NCBI RefSeq assembly: GCF_009914755.1
Contig: NC_060936.1
Origin: the human T2T-CHM13v2.0 reference genome, Homo sapiens
Strand: one strand, 5' to 3'
DNA length: 64,000 nt
The notes beneath the pieces were generated by a model. That model searched no databases and was not told the DNA's origin. It worked only from the letters and a program-made list of their open reading frames with translations. The translations under genes and the position numbers were made by a program. The stretch's first letter is position 1. Every line of letters begins with the position of its first letter. This document shows positions 45,057 to 61,164 of the stretch, piece after piece.

Positions 45057-48527
<3,471 letters not shown>

Positions 48528-48557
48528 CGGTCTGTATTAAGTCATTTCGGTTCTCTA

Positions 48558-48732
48558 GAATAGTGCTGCCCAACAGGGAATTCTTCTATCAAGCACTTCA
48601 AGTGTGGACAGTGCATGTGAGAAACTAAATTTTAAATTTTTGTGAAGTTTTAGTTAATTTAAATAGCCCAATGTGCTACTGTACAGCTATTTAAAAATAT
48701 ATTTAATAGCTGCACTGCTACTGTAGAGCACA
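48558..48732. mobile_element. MER3-like hAT-Charlie fragment
   Basis: tagtgctgcccaacag and agcacttcaagtgtgg motifs. Confidence 0.5.
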
Positions 48733-49319
48733 ACTGTTAAAAACCTGTTTCAAGTTATATTTGGGATGCTAAGAATGTACATTCCATTTTAACAGTTGCT
48801 GGGTACCTCAAGCCTCGGGGAATCAGAAGTAGCCAGGGTTCCTAATAATGTAAACTATTCTTTAGCCTAGTCTGGTTTGGTTTCAAATTACTACCCTTCT
48901 TTCCTTCTATTTTTTTTCTTCCAAAGTCTGTTTCTTTCTGCTGTTACAAAACAGAGCTCCTTTCCCTTCCAGTTCACTTCAAAACTCCCTCTCCCTCCTT
49001 GCTCTTGCTGTTCTCTTCAAGTAAGCCCATGGTATCTAAAGATACCTACATCCTGGTTAATACTACAAACTTTAGAATCCAACAGGTCTAGATTCAAATC
49101 CTAACTCTACCATCATTCAATAAATGGCTGTTATCAAGATCATTATTATTCTTATTGTCAGAAACAACAGAGAAATAGGAAATAGTAATAAAACTGTTGC
49201 TTGCCACTTTCTTTGTTTTCCCTAAAGCAAATGCAAGGACTAAAAAAAGATAAATCAACATTACTAAATAACAACTAAATTGATCAAGTCTCCTATTAGA
49301 GTGTGAGTGTGTGTGTTTG

Positions 49320-49901
49320 TTTTAAGAGAAACAGTCTTGCTCTGTCGTCCAGGCTGGAGCGTGGTGGCACAATTACAGCTCACTGCAGCCTTGAATTCCT
49401 GGGCTCAAGCAATCCTCCTGCCTCAGCCTCTCAAGTAGCTAGGACTGCAGGTGCACACCACCACATTCAACCATTTTTTTTTTCTTAAGACGGAGTCTCG
49501 CTCTGTCGCCCAGGCTGGAGTGCAGTGGCGCATCTCAGCTCACCGCAACCTCCGCTTCCCAAGTTCAAGCAATTCTCTGCCTCAGCCTCCTGAGTAGCTG
49601 GGATTACAGGTGCCCGCCACCACGCCCAGCTAATTTTTGTATTTTTAGGAGAGACGGGGTTTCACCATCTTGGCCAGGCTGGTCTTGAACTCCTGACCTC
49701 GTGATCCACCCGCCTTGGCCTCCCAAAGTGCTGGGATTACAGGCATGAGCCACCGCGCCCGGCCTCAACTAATTTTTTTATTTGTAGAGATGGAGTCTCA
49801 CTCTGTTGCCCAGGCTGGTCTCAAATTCCAGACCTCAAGCAATCTTCCCACCTTGGTCTCCTAAAATGCCGGGATTACAAGCATGTGCCACTGTGCCCAG
49901 C
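49320..49901 (-). mobile_element. AluJ with a younger AluS (49475-49764) nested in its A-rich linker
   Basis: Order: old right arm, full younger Alu, old left arm. Linker duplicated (tcaacca / tcaacta). Confidence 0.9.
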
Positions 49902-52419
49902 CTTCTAGTGATATTTTGTCAAAAAGGTAAAATCAGATTCTCTGGTTACACAGAAAGAAGAGGGATATAAATGGCCACGAGGAAATATCACACTATTACC
50001 AATCCTACTCCCAAGCCCAATCCTGCCATGACAGACCCTACTATGGATGAGCACTGATATGATAAATGAGAGACAGAGGTGAATAAAAGGGAAAGTAGAA
50101 GCAGTCTCTATGTTGGGCACACTTATGCCAAGGGCATACCAGTCCCCAGAATTAGTTTCTAGTTCAGTTTCTAAGAAGATTATCAGTGACCTGATTGCTT
50201 GTTAGCAGTTGATCAACAAAAGCAATTTCTAGGAATCTTTCATATTCACTTCCTCCACTGTGGACCTATGTTAAGAAAAGGACCAAGCACCATTCACTGA
50301 TGAACAAATTATCCTATTATCTTGTGCTTACCAGATAAATGGAAAATTAAGAAGCTGAAGTCACCCACATTTACAGGTCTTTTAATAAAATCAGTTTCCT
50401 ATATCAATCCAGAAAGTAAGGATATGTTTCAGAACGTCTCTAAAATTCTCGTGCAGTGTGGAAGCGAGTGCCAAAATAATCCATAATGATGCATGTCACC
50501 TCACACTATGCTCTACAATGATCAAAAACCTAATTATTGAAACAAATCATTTTCTAAAGAGTAAAATGAATAAAGAATAAAACACTTTCAAAGTGAAAGG
50601 CAAGCCAGAAATCGTCAGCCAGACAATGAAGACTGAATTGAAAATAGGACAAGTTTTTCAAAGCTAATACATTTATTTAGAAAGTTCATCAAGTGTTCTA
50701 AAAAAAGAATTAATTTTCCTGCTTCCTTCTTCATTTAATGTAGCATCATCTCCTTAACAGAAATTGTACTGTTGCATGCAGCAAGGTCACCTACATGTTG
50801 AAAAAAATTATAAAATATAATTCTCAAACTGTATTTAACATGAATATGAGGTGATTAAAGTTGGCATTACATTCCAAAATATATCAAAAGTGAGATCAAG
50901 GAGTTCCAGTTCCAGGTAAGATGGAATAAACACATCCCACCTTGTTAATCTCACTGAATGAAACTACAAAATACTGACAGAATGAATGGAGCAGCTATAT
51001 GAAGACTCAGGAGTAAATAATAGCATATGGACTAGAGAAGACACCAGAATCTGATGCATCATCAAACTGTCAGTAAGTTTACCACCTTTTCTCCATCCAG
51101 AATCCCCTGGCCTGGGATTAATAAAGCCTGAAACCTAGAAAGTAGGCACTGGTAACAACAGAGAGCAAGCTCTAAGAGAATCCCTCTAAATATAAAGTGA
51201 GGTGGGTAAGGGGGAGGGGAGCTGGGGGTAAGGAGTGTCTCCTTCCTAATGTTCAGAAAGAGAGGGGGAAACTGCTCCTTTTTTTTTGTTTTCCCCCTTT
51301 CTCTGTTCCTCATGTCCCAATTCCCAAATGATCTGGTGATGGTAGTGGGTGCAACAGTGGCAGCAGCAGGAACCTAAAACTCTTAAGAAAAGAGAGAGAT
51401 GAACCATCCTCACCAAATAAAAAAACTCTGGGCCAATCTTGTTGACTTCTGTCTTCCTGTTACTTGGATCCAGACACAGTTACAGAAAATGGAGTAAATG
51501 AAAACCAATTTTCTGGCCAAAAGACAGAAAAGACTGTCCCAGGGATCTAGAAAATACCATGGATATAACAGAGAGAAAAGAACTCAAGAAAGTAACAGCT
51601 GTTTTTGAACTCCTAACTCACCCAAGCTGAACGTATGTGGATTTAAACCCAAGCAGCATACCACCGACTCTGAAAACTGAAATATAAGATAAACCTCCAC
51701 ACATGTCACAGACTGGCTACTGGGTAGCGCATATTGAAAAAGTATAAATAGTAATGTAAAGTTTTGAAAACAGAACTGAAGTTAAAAAACTACAACCTAC
51801 AGAAAGCTAATTGGAACTTGTGACCAACCTGAACCCAACTGGATCAACTGCCTGTAAAAATAAAAATATTGGCTGGGCACAGTGACTCAAGCATGTAATC
51901 CCAGCACTTTAAGAGGTCAAGATGGGAGGACTGCTTAAAGCTAGTAGTTAGAGACCAGTCTGGGCAACAAAGTGAGATCCTCTCTCTACAAAAAATAGAA
52001 AATAAAGTAGCCAAGCATAGTGGTGTGTCACTGTAGTCCCAGCTAATCAGGTGACTGGGGCAGGAGGATCCCTTGAGCCCAGGAGTTGAAGGATGAAGGA
52101 AAGTACAATCATGCCATGCACTTCAGCCTGGATGCGACAGCAAAACCCTGTCTCTTAAAAAAAAAAAAAAAAAAAAAATCCAAAAAACAAAAACAAAAAC
52201 ATCAACATTTTCCATAGCATTTAAACAAAAGACAAAGTTTTGTAACATAATATTCAAAATGTACAGAACACAATCCAAAATTACTTGGCATAGAGAGAGG
52301 TGGGAAAAATAACACTCTCATGGGAAAAGACAATTAAAAGAAAACACCACCAAGATGATACAGCTGGGTGAATTATCTAAAATGAATTACCTAACAAGCA
52401 GACAAAGATTTAAAGCCAG

Positions 52420-52580
52420 TATATATATATATATCGATATATATATATAGATATATATATAGATATATAGATATATATATAGATATATAGATATATATAT
52501 AGATATATAGATATATAGATATAGATATATAGATATATATATAGATATATAGATATATAGATATAGATATATAGATATAT
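52420..52580. repeat. Compound (TA)n/(TAGA)n microsatellite, ~160 bp
   Basis: Directly visible. Confidence 0.97.
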
Positions 52581-55634: not shown

Positions 55635-58384
55635 TATGTGTACATTTAACACAAGATAACTGCAACATAAAGGGGGAAAGGTAAAGGGACATACATGGTG
55701 GTAAGACCTCTATTTCACTTCAAGTGGTAAAATATCAATTCTAAGTAGACTAAAATTTTAAGTATGTATAATTCTTAGAGCTACCACTAAAAACATTAGT
55801 CAACGTCTTGTGTCATTCCACCTTCATTTCAAGAAGGGTGAGTAAAGTACAGTAAGATATTTTGAGAGAGCCCACATTCACATAACTTTTATTACAGTAT
55901 ATTGTTATAATTGTTCTATTATTTGTTATTGTTAATCTTTTCTGCACCTAATTTATAAGTTAAACTTTATCATGAGTATGTACATATAGGAAAAAACATG
56001 ATAGACATAGAGTTTGGTACTATCTGTAGTTTCAGGCATCTACTTGAAATATATCCCACATGGAAAAGGGGTAACTACTATACCCAGTTCCCTTCAAATC
56101 AGTCCAAGTTGGCCAGTTAAAATGGAATACTAAAAAAATGTTCAAATAACCCAAAGAAGGAAGTTACAGAGGAACAAAAACAGAGGGAACAAACAGAAAA
56201 TAGACTTGAACCCAAACATATCCATATTTAAAATATGTGAGATGTAGCAAAAGCACTATAGTATTAAATTTCTTCTATCAGAAAAGGTCTCAAATCAGTA
56301 ATTTAAACTTGCACCTTAAACTAAAAAAGGAGCAAAGTATATACAAAACTGGCAGAAGGAAGAAAATAAAGGAACAGAAATCAATGAAATTGGAAACAGA
56401 AAAACAGATAAAAATCAATGAGACCAAAAGCTCATTCTTTGAAAAGATCAATAAAATTTAAACCTCTTGCCAGACTGATGATGTAGATAGCCTGAATAGC
56501 CTTAGGACTATTTGAAGAAATTGAATTTGTAGTTAAAAGCCTTCCAAAAAAGAAACCTCGAGGCCCACATAATTTCCCTGGTGAATTCTAAGAAATATTT
56601 AAAGGAGAAATAACACCAAATCAACACAATCTCTTCCAGAAAATGGAAGATGAACACTTCCCAAATCATTTTATGAATCCAGCATTATCCTCATGCAAAA
56701 AAAAAATAGTACATGAAAAGAACAAATTTATATTCTGCTCCTCATCAAAACAAAAACTATGGTACATTCAATCATATAATGAAATACTGCTCAGCAATAA
56801 AAAGGAATGAACTAGCATTTCATTCAACAAATTGTATGCATCTTAAAGGCATTCTATTTTGTGAAAGAAGCCAGTCTCAAAAGGCAACATATTCTAGAAT
56901 TGCATTTACATGCAAACCTATAGTGATGAAGAACTTGTTAGCAGTTACCTGGGTTAGGGGAATGTATGACAACACAGTTTTTGGCGGGGGTGGGATGATA
57001 GAACCATTGCAAATCTTGACTGTAGTGGTAATACAGATCTATACATGTATTAAAACTCACAGAACTATACACCTCAAAAAGCTCAATTTTACTGTATATA
57101 ATAAAAGTTAAACTTTCTTAAAAAGACTAACATGAGAGCAATTTTTTGAAAATATTATGAACTAAAATATAAATTGTTAACATTTTCAGGAAAGGCACTT
57201 TTTCACTGTCAACTTCATAGTTTCAGTTGTTCCAATTCTTATAACTACTGCCAACACAGAAGGCACCCAAATTATACTGCCACAAGATGAGCTTGGGAGG
57301 GGGTGTTTGAATGTTTTATCTCTGCTTTCTCCATTTCTTCAGCACTGACAGTTCTGAGAGACAACAGATATCTATAACCTGTACAGACACAGAGATTAAA
57401 AACAACAGGCTCAATTTAACAACTGCACTAAATTCTAAGGCAGAGTTGCAGAAACAGATCAGTTCCAAAACCCTAATGATAGCATGGGTGATCACCAAAA
57501 GAAGACATCTATTATGACTCCCAGTTAGGTTACACTCTTATGTGACAGTCATCCACTCTATGGGAAGAATATATTTACAACGCAGTACTTTATTTAAGAA
57601 AATACAAATGAGTGCCTTTTATGTGCCTGGATAGTTTACCATGAGAGTCTGAAAAATCATCAAATGACAGGCTTCCATTACTTCTCCAAATAAGAAACAA
57701 CTGTAAACAGTAGCATATGTCCTTTGATAACTTCAATATATTTATGCAATTGTTGTCTAATAACCCCACCCCTGCTTAAGTTATGGAGGACAGAACACAA
57801 AGAGTTGGTTACACAATCTTCATTTATCCTCAAGATTCTCATCCCCATTTACTGAAGTACAATGACATAACTAATTTATATGCTAAGGGCAAACCTAAAG
57901 CTCTCTTATATTTATTTCCGCCAGGCAATTTCTGAATGCCTGTTACAGGTACTTTTAAGGGATGAGTTATACATTTGGAAAAGTAGAGTTTACACGTAGA
58001 AAACTAAACTTTATGCCTATTAGTGACAAAAAGCAAAAGAGCAGTGAGATGTTACAGACTCATTTTACAACCAAACTTCCCAAGAAGACTACAGGAGCAC
58101 TTGGGTCAACAGCACTGTATTTTCACATCTGGGAGGCAGAATAACAAAGAGAAGAAAGGCATCTTGGATGGACGTATGGAAGTAGAGGAAGAACTGGTGA
58201 ATTTTTATCCTTTTAAGAAAAACAGGAAAACTGTCAACTATATTTTTACTTCAACACTTGGTGTACCCTGGAAAGACTTCTGAGCAGAAATGACAATGCC
58301 TGTCCATCTACTCACCTCCCAAAAAAGGGAGATGGGAAAATTGTGTAGGGCACAGAAAATACTTGCAAATAATAAAGAAAGCTC

Positions 58385-58846
58385 TCTTAGTTCATTTGTG
58401 CTGCTGTACAAAAACAAACAACAAATAAAAACAAACAAACAAACAAAAGACACTTGAGACAGTTAATTTATAAAAAATAGAAATTTCTCACACAGTTGTG
58501 GAGGCTAAGAAGTCTAAGATCAAGGCATCAGCAGGTTCAGTGCCTGGTGAGGATCCGGTCCCTGCTTCCAAGATGGCACCTGTTACTGCATCTTCAAGTA
58601 TTAGGTGGTGGGGCTTTTAGGAGGTGATTAGGCTGTGAGGGCTATGCCCTCATGGATGGAATTAGTGCCTTATAAAAGGGCCCTGTTAGTTCTCTCCAGC
58701 CCTTATAGAAGGCACTAATTCCATCCATGAGGGCAGAGCCCTCACAGCCTAATCACCTCCTAAAAGCCCCACCACTTAATACTGTTGCATTCAGGATTAA
58801 GTTTCAACATGAATTTTGGAGAGGGCATAAACATTGAAACCACAGA
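58385..58846 (+). mobile_element. MaLR solo LTR (MST/MLT1A-like) with an internal inverted duplication
   Basis: ttagttcatttgtgctgct start, aagtctaagatcaagg, aagtttcaacatgaattttgg end. Confidence 0.85.
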
Positions 58847-61164
58847 AAAATCCTAAGAGTTAAAGGGGGAGAATTAGTGAAAATAAATGACCACATAAAA
58901 ATGCTTGTCACAGAAAAATGAGAATGGATTTAATAGGAAAAAAGGGATGATGTTCAAAACACTGCTTCTGAAATTCTACCCCGTTCTGTTTAAACAAGAT
59001 TTTTAAAACTTTACAGAGTTTCAATTCCAGAAATTAGTTTATTTTGCACAAATGCTGAAAGTTACTCTTTCGTTGGTTTCTTGAGAACTGATCACTTTCT
59101 TCATACTAATCCCTTACAAATTGGTACAAGTAGTTATTATAAAACCAAGACAGAAAAAAGCAATTATCTTGCACAGTGTAAACAGGACATCTACTCTTTT
59201 CTCTAGCTATGCCTATTATCTGAATTTCTTAAACACAAACTCATCCTTCTAGGTATCTCAGAGATAAGTACAATTATGTTACATAAATGTATATGTATCA
59301 ATGTGCCCTCATATGAATATTTTACACATAATTTAAAGAAGCATTTCACAATCCTACTCCTATGAAATACAACTCTAACCCAGATACCGATTGTATTACA
59401 TACTATGCAAACTTAAAATTAAAAAAAAAAAAATTCTGCCACATTAGCATAAGGCATGAATAGATATTGGGATTCTTTCCTAAATGTAATCATATCACAA
59501 ATGCTACAAATGCCCATAACCTAGATTTTTGTGTAAGCGTTTCATATTATTTTTGGCTACTACTTTCTAACAGGTCACGAATGATCTCATTTAACTTTTA
59601 TAGAACCTGGTGAAAGAGGCATCTCAATTTTACATACAATGAAAATAAGTAACATGCCCAAGATCGAAAAGCCAGCATTAAGTAGTAGGACTGGAACCCA
59701 TTAGCAATTTACCAACAAATAACACAAATATTAATCCAAGTCACCAGAAATCATGAGTATTCAAACAACAAGAAGTGGTAACATTCTTAATGATTCAAAT
59801 GACTGCAAAAATGTTAAGCTTTTAACCTGCCTTCTTTATCACTATATTACTAGGATCCAACAGCATGCCTTCAAAGGAATGCCCAATTATTTATGGATAT
59901 GTTTAGCAACCATAGCACATGTTATTTGTCAGGCATGATTCTAAACACACTTAGTCCCTCTCTCTACATATATTAACAAACCACTATGATCTTGAGAGAT
60001 TAACTTCATTTTACAGTGATACTGTCATTACCCCCATTTTATTGTGGAAACACCTAGCAAGTGATGGAGCTGGGACTGAAATTCAGATAATCAGGCTCCC
60101 TTATGCTCTTAACCATTGACACTAAACGGCCTAATACACAAAAGGATCTCTATAAGGGTCATAAGTTACCCAACAACTCACCTGAACATCATATCCTTAC
60201 AGTATTTATGTAACTAATTAAGTAACATTTATCTGAGTCCAGTGGTAATAAATAGCAGCTAACTCTATGTTCCATTCTCTTAAATTAGCTCTATTTAGTG
60301 AGTGACTCTCATGCCCTTTTAGTGCAAAGAACCTGAGAGTAGAATAACTGGATTAAGACTGTCCTGCTCCACCAGGTTCCAAAATACCTGTGTTTGGGAG
60401 GAGTGTTCCTCCTCCCAAAATACACTAATAGGAAAAACTAAACTGATATTAGTAAGATACTAGTTATCAATGTCTTAGGACATAACCTAATATATCACAT
60501 CATTTAGAATAGTTTGTTTTAGGGAAACAGGGCAGGTGATTTATAAATTAACAAAATAAAGAAATATTGTCAAAGAGTATATATAGTTGGTTTTTGGAAG
60601 AGACAACTCAGACCAAAATAATGCTGTTAGAGATTGAGTGATATTCGGATTATCACCTAAATGTAATCTTATTATAAATGCTACAAACTGCCAACTACCT
60701 TTTCAAGTGAAATTTCTAACTGGCCAGTCTTCTGCTATGTTCACCATGACTAACACAGGATATGATTTGTTCGACACCATAAAAGTATATCAGTAAGACA
60801 TGTTAATGAGAAAGGAAACAGGGATGAAGAGTCAAAAACGATGAATGAACTCATCCCTAAAACAAACTATTCTAAATGATGTGATGATGTAGAGAACAGT
60901 CTTACAAATCCATGCCAAAGAAATAACCCTGATATTAATCCAAGTCCCTTAAAGTTGTATCAAAATAATCTCTAAACAAATAGCCCCTTACAGCTCTGAG
61001 ATTCCTGTCTCCCAAAAAGATCCAAAAACCGAAACATCATTCTCCCATTTTCTGAGGAATAAATATAATCCGTCATCCTTGAATAAATACGTTTTTGTTT
61101 TTTATCTCATTTCCCCAAGTTATTCTAGTTACAGATTAACTCTAGACTGTTCACCTATCTCTAA

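What the first reader, a model, noticed from the sequence alone, without database searches (positions are those of the whole stretch)
58597..58783. 85-bp near-perfect hairpin formed by an inverted duplication inside an old MaLR LTR (intron 1)
Seen: arm 1 (58597-58681) is the reverse complement of arm 2 (58699-58783) with 4 mismatches in 85 bp and a 17-nt loop. Arm 2 is the normal 3' part of the LTR, and arm 1 sits where the LTR's middle section should be. Each arm also contains a small palindrome (tgagggc-3nt-gccctca). Inference: ~95% arm identity is much higher than expected for an element of this age class. The inversion therefore arose later by replication template switching, or has been homogenised. 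In SCAF11 pre-mRNA it would be a long local dsRNA stem, a possible ADAR, Microprocessor or Dicer substrate. In DNA it could form a cruciform.
Basis: partly seen in the sequence, partly recalled or inferred. Interest (0 to 1): 0.7.

Follow-up and report, generated by a model that had tools for sequence, protein, structure and literature searches.

The report
Fold-back hairpin inside an old LTR
An ancient retroviral-type LTR in the first intron of SCAF11 copied 77 bases of itself backwards, probably in a primate ancestor, which made a real but most likely harmless 85-base-pair hairpin of a kind already described.

Summary
Arms 58597-58681 and 58699-58783 are 85 nt, 81 of 85 complementary, with a 17-nt spacer. 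The fold is far stronger than chance (RNA -165.8 kcal/mol, z -20; 0 of 200 shuffles as good).

The host is a solitary MaLR-type LTR of the MLT1 group, about 58375-58848, on the + strand and antisense to SCAF11. It lies in intron 1 of 10 of 12 RefSeq transcripts.

In 24 other genomic copies, arm 2 and the spacer are native, and so are the innermost 8 nt of arm 1. The other 77 nt of arm 1 (58597-58673) have no native counterpart; they stand where copies have roughly 20 other bases.

The family already carries an 8-bp inverted repeat with a 17-nt spacer at exactly this axis. The hairpin therefore grew outward from that seed in one fold-back or template-switch event.

The copied tract differs from its source at 3 of 77 sites. 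That puts the event at roughly 10-25 Myr (interval about 3-70), against about 100 Myr for the LTR.

No other place in the genome has this inverted form. No curated RNA family matches. Function is untested and most likely absent. This is a new example of a known mutation class.

The parts
58375..58848 (+). Solitary MaLR-type LTR of the MLT1 group, as it stands today. It includes a later microsatellite and the inverted tract. The bounds are approximate and come from homology.
   Evidence: Homology to other genomic copies starts at 58375-58387 and ends at 58835-58851. Of 24 distinct copies, 20 align separately to a right part and 4 give one long gapped match; a left-part match appears in 19 of 24. 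The termini and the target-site duplication were not resolved.
58412..58447 (.). (AAAC)n microsatellite inside the 5' part of the LTR
   Evidence: TRF: period 4, 9.8 copies, 82% matches
58442..58596 (+). Native 5'/middle part of the LTR, up to the left junction
   Evidence: Colinear with other copies at 72-78% identity. The match runs up to 58596 in L015.
58597..58673 (+). Inverted copy (77 nt) of 58707-58783: the newly made part of arm 1
   Evidence: In all 24 copies it matches only in reverse orientation, and at the same place as arm 2. It differs from its source at 3 of 77 sites. Over 58583-58783 the copies have a median of 144.5 nt where the window has 201.
58674..58681 (+). Native 8-nt left half of the family's short inverted repeat: the seed and junction homology, and the innermost part of arm 1
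   Evidence: Native-orientation matches of 14 of 24 copies begin at 58673-58675. At least 6 of 8 pairs with the right half are present in 11 of 24 copies.
58682..58698 (+). 17-nt spacer, native LTR sequence, now the hairpin loop
   Evidence: The spacer between the two native 8-mers is 17 nt in 20 of 24 copies.
58699..58783 (+). Arm 2: native 3' part of the LTR. 58699-58706 is the right half of the native 8-bp repeat and 58707-58783 is the template of the copy.
   Evidence: Native-orientation homology in all 24 copies. It contains the native small palindrome at 58726-58746.
58784..58848 (+). Native 3' end of the LTR
   Evidence: Matches to copies run up to 58835-58851.

Best explanation
A solitary LTR of the ERVL-MaLR superfamily (MLT1 group, subfamily not resolved) inserted on the + strand long ago, in what is now SCAF11 intron 1. 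Like its relatives, it carried a short inverted repeat: 8 bp with a 17-nt spacer.

Much later, probably in a catarrhine or ape ancestor, one template-switch (fold-back) event took place. A growing DNA strand that had just copied one half of that 8-bp repeat paired with the other half on itself, or on the sister strand. It copied 77 nt of the LTR's own 3' part in reverse complement and then returned to its template about 20 nt further on. The result replaced roughly 20 native bases with a 77-nt inverted copy. An 8-bp stem thereby became an 85-bp stem with the same 17-nt loop.

Shown: the structure, the native seed, the non-native tract, the uniqueness of the locus, and the low divergence of the arms.

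Inferred: the single-event mechanism, the date, and that the hairpin is selectively neutral. In SCAF11 pre-mRNA it should form an 85-bp near-perfect dsRNA stem and be a passive ADAR target that is removed with the intron. This part is prediction only.
For: Structure.

Origin in the same copy:
- The 77 other matches in the human reference all lie on single segments of at most 113 nt. These hit query 77-103 onward on one strand and query 1-88 on the other, at the same place. Only 40 of 1428 candidates were scored.
- All 24 distinct copies match arm 1 only in reverse, at the coordinates of their arm-2 homologue.
- In the MAFFT alignment with 18 copies the window carries extra length here: 201 nt against a median of 144.5.

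Late timing:
- The arms share 3 states held by fewer than 25% of 24 copies, and 5 held by fewer than 50%.
- Of the 4 arm differences, 2 are private to arm 2 (0 of 23 and 0 of 24 copies share them) and 2 are private to arm 1 (1 of 23 and 1 of 24).
- The K2P distance of the LTR to copies has a median of 0.289, against 0.040 between the copied tract and its source.

Seed: the native 8-bp repeat has at least 6 of 8 pairs in 11 of 24 copies, and the 17-nt spacer is present in 20 of 24. Native-orientation matches of 14 of 24 copies start at 58673-58675, inside arm 1.

Uniqueness:
- An inverted pair of 13-mers 104-134 nt apart, with up to 2 mismatches, is found at this locus plus one dissimilar chr6 place.
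- An inner inverted pair of 12-mers, with up to 1 mismatch, is found at this locus only.
- The single 16-mer occurs 382 times in the genome.

Known mechanism:
- PMC5453318 (passages) describes the four-point template-switch model and the classic conversion of near-perfect inverted repeats.
- PMC10710096 (abstract, sections 9 and 14, passages) reports 53,666 putative events in human gene regions since the primate ancestor, 31,007 of them making new stems, with events of up to 83 bases.
Against: - No outgroup species could be examined. The state before the event is inferred from paralogous copies, not from orthologues.
- The date rests on 3 substitutions.
- The left junction (58596/58597) shows no clear microhomology, at most 1-2 nt by eye, so the return step is unexplained.
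- The 24 copies were chosen by similarity to the hairpin itself. This lowers the apparent divergence of the arm-2 tract.
- The seed repeat has fewer than 6 of 8 pairs in 13 of 24 copies. Three of those 13 lack letters only because of how I cut them. Its state in this copy at the time of the event is therefore unknown.
- Nothing here tests whether the stem forms in vivo or is edited.
Confidence: 0.8

Rival explanations
1. The same product arose during repair of a double-strand break in the middle of the LTR, not at a replication fork. A resected 3' end snapped back on the native 8-bp repeat, primed limited synthesis on itself, and was then joined to the other end (synthesis-dependent or polymerase-theta-type end joining).
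For: The native seed repeat sits at the apex and about 20 native bases are lost at the junction. The left junction has little or no microhomology, which suits end joining. Snap-back templated synthesis at sequences that form secondary structure is in print: PMC5728401 and PMC4912351 (search listing and start of abstracts only).
Against: By my recall, templated insertions in that pathway are usually far shorter than 77 nt; this was not checked in a paper. The sequence alone cannot tell the two routes apart.
Confidence: 0.15
2. The inverted duplication is nearly as old as the LTR, and the arms have been kept alike by gene conversion or by repeated template switching between them.
For: Template switching is reported to maintain hairpins (PMC8794818, listing and abstract only). 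States that are rare in the family and shared by both arms (3 to 5 columns) would also arise by conversion.
Against: The arms are only 85 nt long. The 4 differences split 2 and 2 between the arms, as expected from simple independent decay. No second event is needed to explain the data.
Confidence: 0.04
3. Arm 1 is a fragment of a second, independent MLT1-type LTR that inserted in opposite orientation into the first.
For: Nested insertions are common in general (recall). Arm 1 matches other copies at 80-90% identity.
Against: - Arm 1 is 95% identical to arm 2, while the best match of the arm-2 part of the query to any other scored copy is 88%.
- It shares this copy's rare states.
- It is an exact mirror about the family's own 8-bp repeat, with the native 17-nt spacer.
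- It covers exactly the span of arm 2 and nothing more.
Confidence: 0.01
4. The hairpin is a functional RNA element: a young small-RNA precursor or an editing-dependent regulator of SCAF11 pre-mRNA.
For: It lies sense-transcribed inside the intron of a gene. The stem is very stable. Introns are where template-switch-born miRNAs are enriched (PMC10710096 abstract).
Against: - The 85-bp stem is outside the 30-55 range used for miRNA-like hairpins.
- Only 57 of 6,054 suitable hairpins are annotated miRNAs.
- There is no RefSeq gene or functional element at the site and no Rfam family at gathering score.
- The arms are decaying at a rate that fits neutrality.
- No paper holds SCAF11 together with A-to-I and intron. 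The 7 papers that hold SCAF11 and RNA editing look unrelated by title and abstract.
Confidence: 0.05
5. Assembly artefact: a fold-back chimera in the reference.
For: None found here.
Against: The arms differ at 4 sites, split between both arms and polarised by other copies. The loop is native LTR sequence. An artefactual fold-back would be expected to be exact, which is an inference.
Confidence: 0.01

Closest known systems
Template-switch mutations that create hairpins in primate genomes (four-point model; Loytynoja and Goldman 2017, PMC5453318; Monttinen et al. 2023, PMC10710096)
   Same: - A nearby stretch is copied in reverse complement and replaces a shorter stretch, in one step.
- This makes a near-perfect stem in a transcribed intron.
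- It starts from a pre-existing short inverted repeat, as in the classic model quoted in PMC5453318.
- The length is within the reported range: events of up to 83 bases.
   Different: - At 77 nt copied and an 85-bp stem, it is at the long end and beyond the 30-55 stem class that the paper calls miRNA-like.
- It lies inside a repeat element. The polymorphism part of that study excluded candidate events that overlap repeat elements.
- Whether this locus is in their tables I could not see, because supplements are closed.
miRNA hairpins born from MaLR LTRs, such as miR-558 in an MLT1C copy (table in PMC10671384)
   Same: The LTR group is the same. Window 58397-58415 resembles the printed mature miR-558 at 16 of 19 positions by eye. 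The MIR558 locus matches the window's LTR colinearly at 58397-58414 and 58485-58535.
   Different: That resemblance lies in the 5' part of the LTR, not in the hairpin. The hairpin here comes from a later inversion, is much longer than a pre-miRNA, and has no annotation.
Inverted Alu pairs, the usual intronic dsRNA and ADAR substrates
   Same: It is an intramolecular dsRNA made of repeat sequence in an intron. The same intron holds several long inverted pairs, for example 46999-47122 with 49577-49700 at 124 nt and 87%.
   Different: Here a single element folds on itself with a 17-nt loop and 95% pairing, instead of two insertions a kilobase or more apart at 72-87%. It is shorter than the 300 bp taken as the MDA5 range (PMC11838218, section 10).
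Snap-back templated insertions in alternative end joining
   Same: A 3' end folds back on a short inverted repeat and primes synthesis on its own strand (PMC5728401 and PMC4912351, listings and abstracts).
   Different: That route starts from a break rather than a fork. By recall its tracts are usually much shorter.

Membership tests
ERVL-MaLR LTR, MLT1 group | Dispersed, many-copy homology over the length of the LTR | tested here: met
   1428 first-look candidates, 40 scored, 79 matches. All 24 distinct copies match the right part and 19 of 24 a left part, colinearly. One 16-mer of the arm occurs 382 times in the genome and 0 times in the reversed control.
ERVL-MaLR LTR, MLT1 group | Homology to a copy that print names as MLT1 | tested here: inconclusive
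   The MIR558 locus is named MLT1C in the table of PMC10671384. It gives two colinear matches to the window: 18 nt at 89% and 51 nt at 80%, E 7e-7. It also gives 66-84-nt matches at about 74% to three distinct copies. The MLT1H2 anchor (MIR3927) gives none. This is enough for the group but not for the subfamily. No Dfam or RepeatMasker names were available, and my reading of the sequence as MLT1 is otherwise recall.
ERVL-MaLR LTR, MLT1 group | LTR termini and target-site duplication; solitary state | tested here: inconclusive
   The ends are placed only by homology. I did not resolve a duplication. Neither flank is listed as a masked repeat of 100 nt or more within 57500-60000, which fits a solitary LTR.
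Template-switch mutation (four-point model) | A fragment equal to the reverse complement of nearby sequence, with mismatches only | tested here: met
   58597-58673 is the reverse complement of 58707-58783 with 3 mismatches and no gap.
Template-switch mutation (four-point model) | It replaces the fragment between leave and return points, seen against the ancestral state | tested here: inconclusive
   Against paralogous copies, about 20 native bases are missing and 77 are gained: 201 nt against a median of 144.5. The true ancestral state needs orthologues from other species, which no tool here holds.
Template-switch mutation (four-point model) | Classic variant: a pre-existing short or imperfect inverted repeat at the switch point | tested here: met
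   The 8-bp repeat with a 17-nt spacer is present in relatives: at least 6 of 8 pairs in 11 of 24, spacer of 17 in 20 of 24.
miRNA precursor | Stem of about 35 bp (30-55) with an apical loop, and a match to a curated family or annotation | tested here: not met
   The stem is 85 bp against 30-55. The Rfam hits are generic long-stem matches to MIR7486 and MIR533 on both strands, all below gathering score. There are 0 matches at gathering score in the whole window and no MIR gene in the RefSeq table for the window.
miRNA precursor | Small RNAs with defined ends | not testable with these tools
ADAR-edited intronic dsRNA | Long, mostly paired intramolecular duplex in a transcribed region | tested here: met
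   81 of 85 positions pair, and the hairpin is in intron 1 of 10 of 12 transcripts. The transcript-strand arms hold 17 and 25 adenosines.
ADAR-edited intronic dsRNA | Observed A-to-I sites | not testable with these tools
   No editing tables are reachable. No paper was found with SCAF11, A-to-I and intron together.
MDA5-type immunogenic dsRNA | More than 300 bp, highly paired, and in a cytoplasmic transcript | tested here: not met
   The stem is 85 bp and intronic. The threshold is as given in PMC11838218, section 10.

The most novel reading that the evidence does not exclude
The hairpin is an ape- or catarrhine-specific functional dsRNA. On this reading it is heavily edited in SCAF11 pre-mRNA, or cut into small RNAs, and so affects the processing or level of SCAF11 transcripts. 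The short inverted repeat native to this LTR group would then be a seed from which such elements can arise.
Probability: 0.05. Interest if true: 0.55.

Novelty: new member of a known kind. Interest (0 to 1): 0.25.

Why it matters
This is a clean, easily read example of how one template-switch event turns an 8-bp inverted repeat inside an old mobile-element remnant into an 85-bp stem. The seed, the template, the copy and the lost bases can all be identified from paralogous copies alone.

It also shows a practical effect: the inversion seems to break the repeat annotation of the LTR.

For RNA biology it is one more candidate among the tens of thousands of highly paired predicted dsRNAs (31,017 of 5.13 million in PMC11838218). 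It is short and intronic, so it is unlikely to matter for innate immunity. It does not open a new question.

Tried and rejected
- **Rfam.** E-value mode over 57500-59800 gave only sub-threshold matches to two long-stem miRNA models, on both strands. I read these as generic helix matches; that MIR7486 and MIR533 are plant families is my recall. Gathering mode over the whole window gave nothing.
- **A second local hairpin in the intron.** The pair 52420-52481 / 52486-52547 proved to be a (TA)n/(GATA)n tract.
- **Naming the subfamily.** No Dfam or RepeatMasker names are available. Smit's 1993 paper on MaLRs is not held. Two anchors named in print were fetched: the MLT1C one matches weakly and the MLT1H2 one does not. 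A third anchor named in print, MIR1246 (MLT1M), was located but not fetched. The subfamily is left open.
- **Recurrence of the same fold-back in other copies.** Two inverted-motif patterns found no second case. The chr6 place has 2 mismatches and its printed letters show no mirror, so I dropped it as chance without fetching it.
- **Target-site duplication and exact LTR ends.** Not resolved by eye.
- **Literature on editing or hairpins in SCAF11.** There were 0 papers for SCAF11 with A-to-I and intron. For SCAF11 with RNA editing there were 7, judged unrelated from title and abstract only.
- **Limits of the copy counts.** The 24 copies are the best of only 40 scored candidates out of 1428 and were picked by likeness to the hairpin. 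Four saved loci (L006, L008, L019, L022) are the same places as others and were dropped before the counts and, through its alignment. One search used 18 of the 24, namely those with both a left and a right match. In one search, three copies (L005, L017, L029) lack letters at the left 8-mer because of my slicing, and they count as misses.

Full report
**1. The observation**

The repeat finder reports arms 58597-58681 and 58699-58783, 85 nt, 95% complementary, 17 nt apart. A script finds 4 mismatches in 85.

The SCAF11-sense (minus) strand 58577-58803 folds as RNA into one long stem at -165.8 kcal/mol. Dinucleotide shuffles average -66.0 (sd 4.9), z = -20.2, and 0 of 200 do as well. As DNA the + strand gives -102.9 kcal/mol, z = -22.7, 0 of 200. 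This is not chance.

The site lies in the first intron of 10 of 12 RefSeq SCAF11 transcripts. NM_004719.3 intron 1 is window 43760-69900. The other two transcripts start downstream of the site.

**2. What the host sequence is**

A search of the reference genome with the 187 nt gave 79 matches. Only 40 of 1428 first-look candidates were scored. Only the window's own place covers the whole query. The other 77 matches lie on single segments of at most 113 nt. These match query positions 77-103 onward on one strand and positions 1-88 on the other strand, at the same place. They are therefore one-armed relatives seen twice because the query is a palindrome.

BLAST of window 58300-58900 against the saved flanks showed the following:
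- The saved loci are 28 in number and represent 24 distinct places.
- The relatives are colinear with a left part, from about 58442 (and in 7 distinct places from 58375-58387) up to 58596 at most.
- They are also colinear with a right part, from 58673-58675 up to 58835-58851.

So the hairpin sits in a dispersed repeat of about 474 bp, on the + strand and antisense to SCAF11. Its flanks are not listed as masked repeats, which fits a solitary LTR. A later (AAAC)n tract lies at 58412-58447.

**3. Family and name**

No Dfam or RepeatMasker names are available here, and window.fa carries no soft-masking. By recall the sequence reads as an MLT1-type MaLR LTR.

From print, the table of PMC10671384 names miR-558 as derived from MLT1C.
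- Window 58397-58415 resembles the printed mature sequence at 16 of 19 positions by eye.
- The MIR558 locus, fetched by its RefSeq place, gives two colinear matches to the window's LTR: 58397-58414 at 89%, and 58485-58535 at 80% with E 7e-7.
- It also matches the 5' parts of three distinct other copies at about 74%.
- A locus that print names MLT1H2 (MIR3927) matches nothing.

I file the element as ERVL-MaLR, MLT1 group, subfamily open. No inner genes are involved or needed. A review describes MaLRs as lacking pol and env (PMC11359688, passages).

**4. Which parts of the hairpin are native**

In a MAFFT alignment of the window's LTR as it stands with 18 copies, arm 2, the 17-nt spacer and the last 8 nt of arm 1 (58674-58681) align with native sequence. 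Native-orientation matches of 14 of 24 copies start at 58673-58675. Four more are long gapped matches across the region, and six start later, at 58687-58703.

The remaining 77 nt of arm 1 (58597-58673) match relatives only in reverse, at the coordinates of their arm-2 homologue. This holds in all 24 copies.

Between the points homologous to 58583 and 58783 the window has 201 nt, while 18 copies have 132-171 nt with a median of 144.5. So 77 nt were gained and roughly 20 native bases were lost.

The homologous segments of the 18 copies fold at -38.8 to -65.0 kcal/mol (median -47.0), against -157.8 for the window.

**5. The seed**

The family does carry a short inverted repeat at exactly this axis. 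The 8-mer at 58674-58681 and the 8-mer at 58699-58706 form at least 6 of 8 pairs in 11 of 24 copies (distribution: 8 pairs in 1, 7 in 3, 6 in 7, 5 in 6, 4 in 2, 3 in 2, 0-1 in 3). The three lowest are copies that my slicing cut short. The distance between the two 8-mers is 17 nt in 20 of 24 copies.

Today's loop is that native spacer, and today's stem is that native stem extended outward by 77 bp. It was simply copied along with the rest.

**6. How it arose (inference)**

The simplest account is one template switch.

*Intrastrand form.* A minus strand growing leftward had just copied 58681-58674. Its 3' end paired with the complementary 8-mer 17 nt behind on the same strand. It was then extended for 77 nt on itself and returned to the + template at 58596, skipping about 20 nt.

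*Interstrand form.* A + strand growing rightward left its template at 58596 and copied the other strand from 58783 back to about 58699-58707. It then returned at 58674-58682, helped by the 8-nt homology.

In the terms of the four-point model (PMC5453318, passages), the copied fragment is 58707-58783 and the replaced fragment is the lost native stretch. The same paper quotes the classic view that such switching uses a pre-existing near-perfect inverted repeat.

The left junction shows no convincing microhomology. That is the weak point of the account, and it leaves room for a break-repair route with snap-back synthesis (PMC5728401 and PMC4912351, listings and abstracts only).

**7. Age**

The four arm differences are at 58705/58675, 58708/58672, 58736/58644 and 58776/58604.
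- At the first two, 0 of 23 and 0 of 24 copies share arm 2's state, while 21 and 20 share arm 1's.
- At the last two, 18 of 23 and 22 of 24 share arm 2's state, and 1 each shares arm 1's.

So each arm has changed twice. One of these sites lies in the native 8-mer, which leaves 3 differences in the 77 copied bases (3.9%; 0.020 per arm after correction). Neither arm contains a CG dinucleotide in the sequences printed.

Both arms share 3 states that fewer than 25% of copies hold (5 at fewer than 50%). These are changes that this LTR had already made before the copy.

The LTR as a whole is far more diverged. The median K2P distance is 0.289 to 18 copies, and 0.304 among the copies; for the arm-2 tract alone it is 0.180. 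That tract figure is biased low because the copies were chosen by likeness to it.

Print places MLT1 insertions before the human-mouse split and the spread of MaLRs at about 110 Myr (PMC11359688, passages). Scaling by that gives 12-24 Myr for the inversion. The interval from the count of 3 alone is about 3-71 Myr. Fixed rates of 0.5, 1.0 and 2.2 per site per billion years give 40, 20 and 9 Myr.

The event therefore most likely happened in a catarrhine or ape ancestor. I could not test this on orthologues, because no primate genome is reachable.

**8. Uniqueness**

- An inverted pair of the 13-mers from the arms, 104-134 nt apart with up to 2 mismatches, occurs at this locus and at one chr6 place. 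The printed letters of the chr6 place show no mirror.
- An inner inverted pair of 12-mers, 29-49 nt apart with up to 1 mismatch, occurs at this locus only.
- The corresponding single 16-mer occurs 382 times in the genome and 0 times in the reversed control.

The inverted form was therefore not spread by the family, which again places the event after insertion. The tool warns that its counts for repeats are lower bounds.

**9. What it does**

Nothing is annotated at the site. No Rfam family reaches its gathering score in the window. The sub-threshold hits in E-value mode are to two long-stem miRNA models, they score on both strands, and I read them as generic helix matches.

The stem is 85 bp. 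The template-switch study counts hairpins with stems of 30-55 as miRNA-like, and finds only 57 of 6,054 such hairpins annotated as miRNAs (PMC10710096, sections 14 and 9).

The stem is far below the 300 bp taken as the MDA5 range, and it is intronic. In the dsRNA catalogue, 96% of the predicted dsRNAs that lie within protein-coding gene loci are intronic, and 31,017 of 5.13 million predictions are more than 96% paired (PMC11838218, passages and section 10).

The same intron holds several other long inverted pairs with kilobase spacers.

My best reading is a neutral by-product. It is transcribed within the intron, probably edited by ADAR as any such duplex would be (17 and 25 adenosines in the two arms), and then discarded with the intron. 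As DNA, an 85-bp inverted repeat with a 17-nt spacer could extrude a cruciform under torsional stress, but by recall that is inefficient with such a spacer. The even decay of both arms shows that it has persisted.

I found no paper on editing or hairpins in this intron.

**10. Verdict**

The account is refined in three ways: a native 8-bp seed, 77 nt copied, and about 20 nt lost. The functional suggestions are untested, and one of them (Microprocessor) is unlikely.

The thing is a new example of a known class, a template-switch-born hairpin. It is notable mainly for its length and for how clearly its parts can be read.

Noticed in passing
window 58412-58447: An (AAAC)n microsatellite, 9.8 copies, grew inside the 5' part of the LTR and splits its homology to other copies.
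   Followed up: partly
window 52420-52547: the repeat finder reports a second tight inverted repeat in the same intron: 62-nt arms, 84% complementary, 4-nt spacer. It is only a (TA)n/(GATA)n low-complexity tract.
   Followed up: yes
window 45068-52000: There is a cluster of long inverted pairs with 0.8-2.7 kb spacers, for example 46999-47122 with 49577-49700 (124 nt, 87%). One printed arm pair reads like Alu by recall. These would be the more usual dsRNA sources in this intron.
   Followed up: no
window 58397-58415: The LTR's 5' part resembles the mature miR-558 sequence printed in PMC10671384 (16 of 19 by eye). The MIR558 locus on chr2 is a homologous LTR copy. No miRNA family is detected here by Rfam.
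   Followed up: partly
window 58352-58454 and 58721-58826: The repeat-mask rows supplied with the annotation cover only these two stretches, although the LTR spans about 58375-58848 by homology. The inverted tract and the diverged middle seem to have broken the repeat call. Rows under 100 nt are not listed, so this is not certain.
   Followed up: partly
G000:C6:10211272-10211430: This was the only other genomic place to satisfy the outer inverted-motif pattern, with 2 mismatches. One end looks like a related LTR and the other does not. It was judged chance from the printed letters and was not fetched.
   Followed up: no
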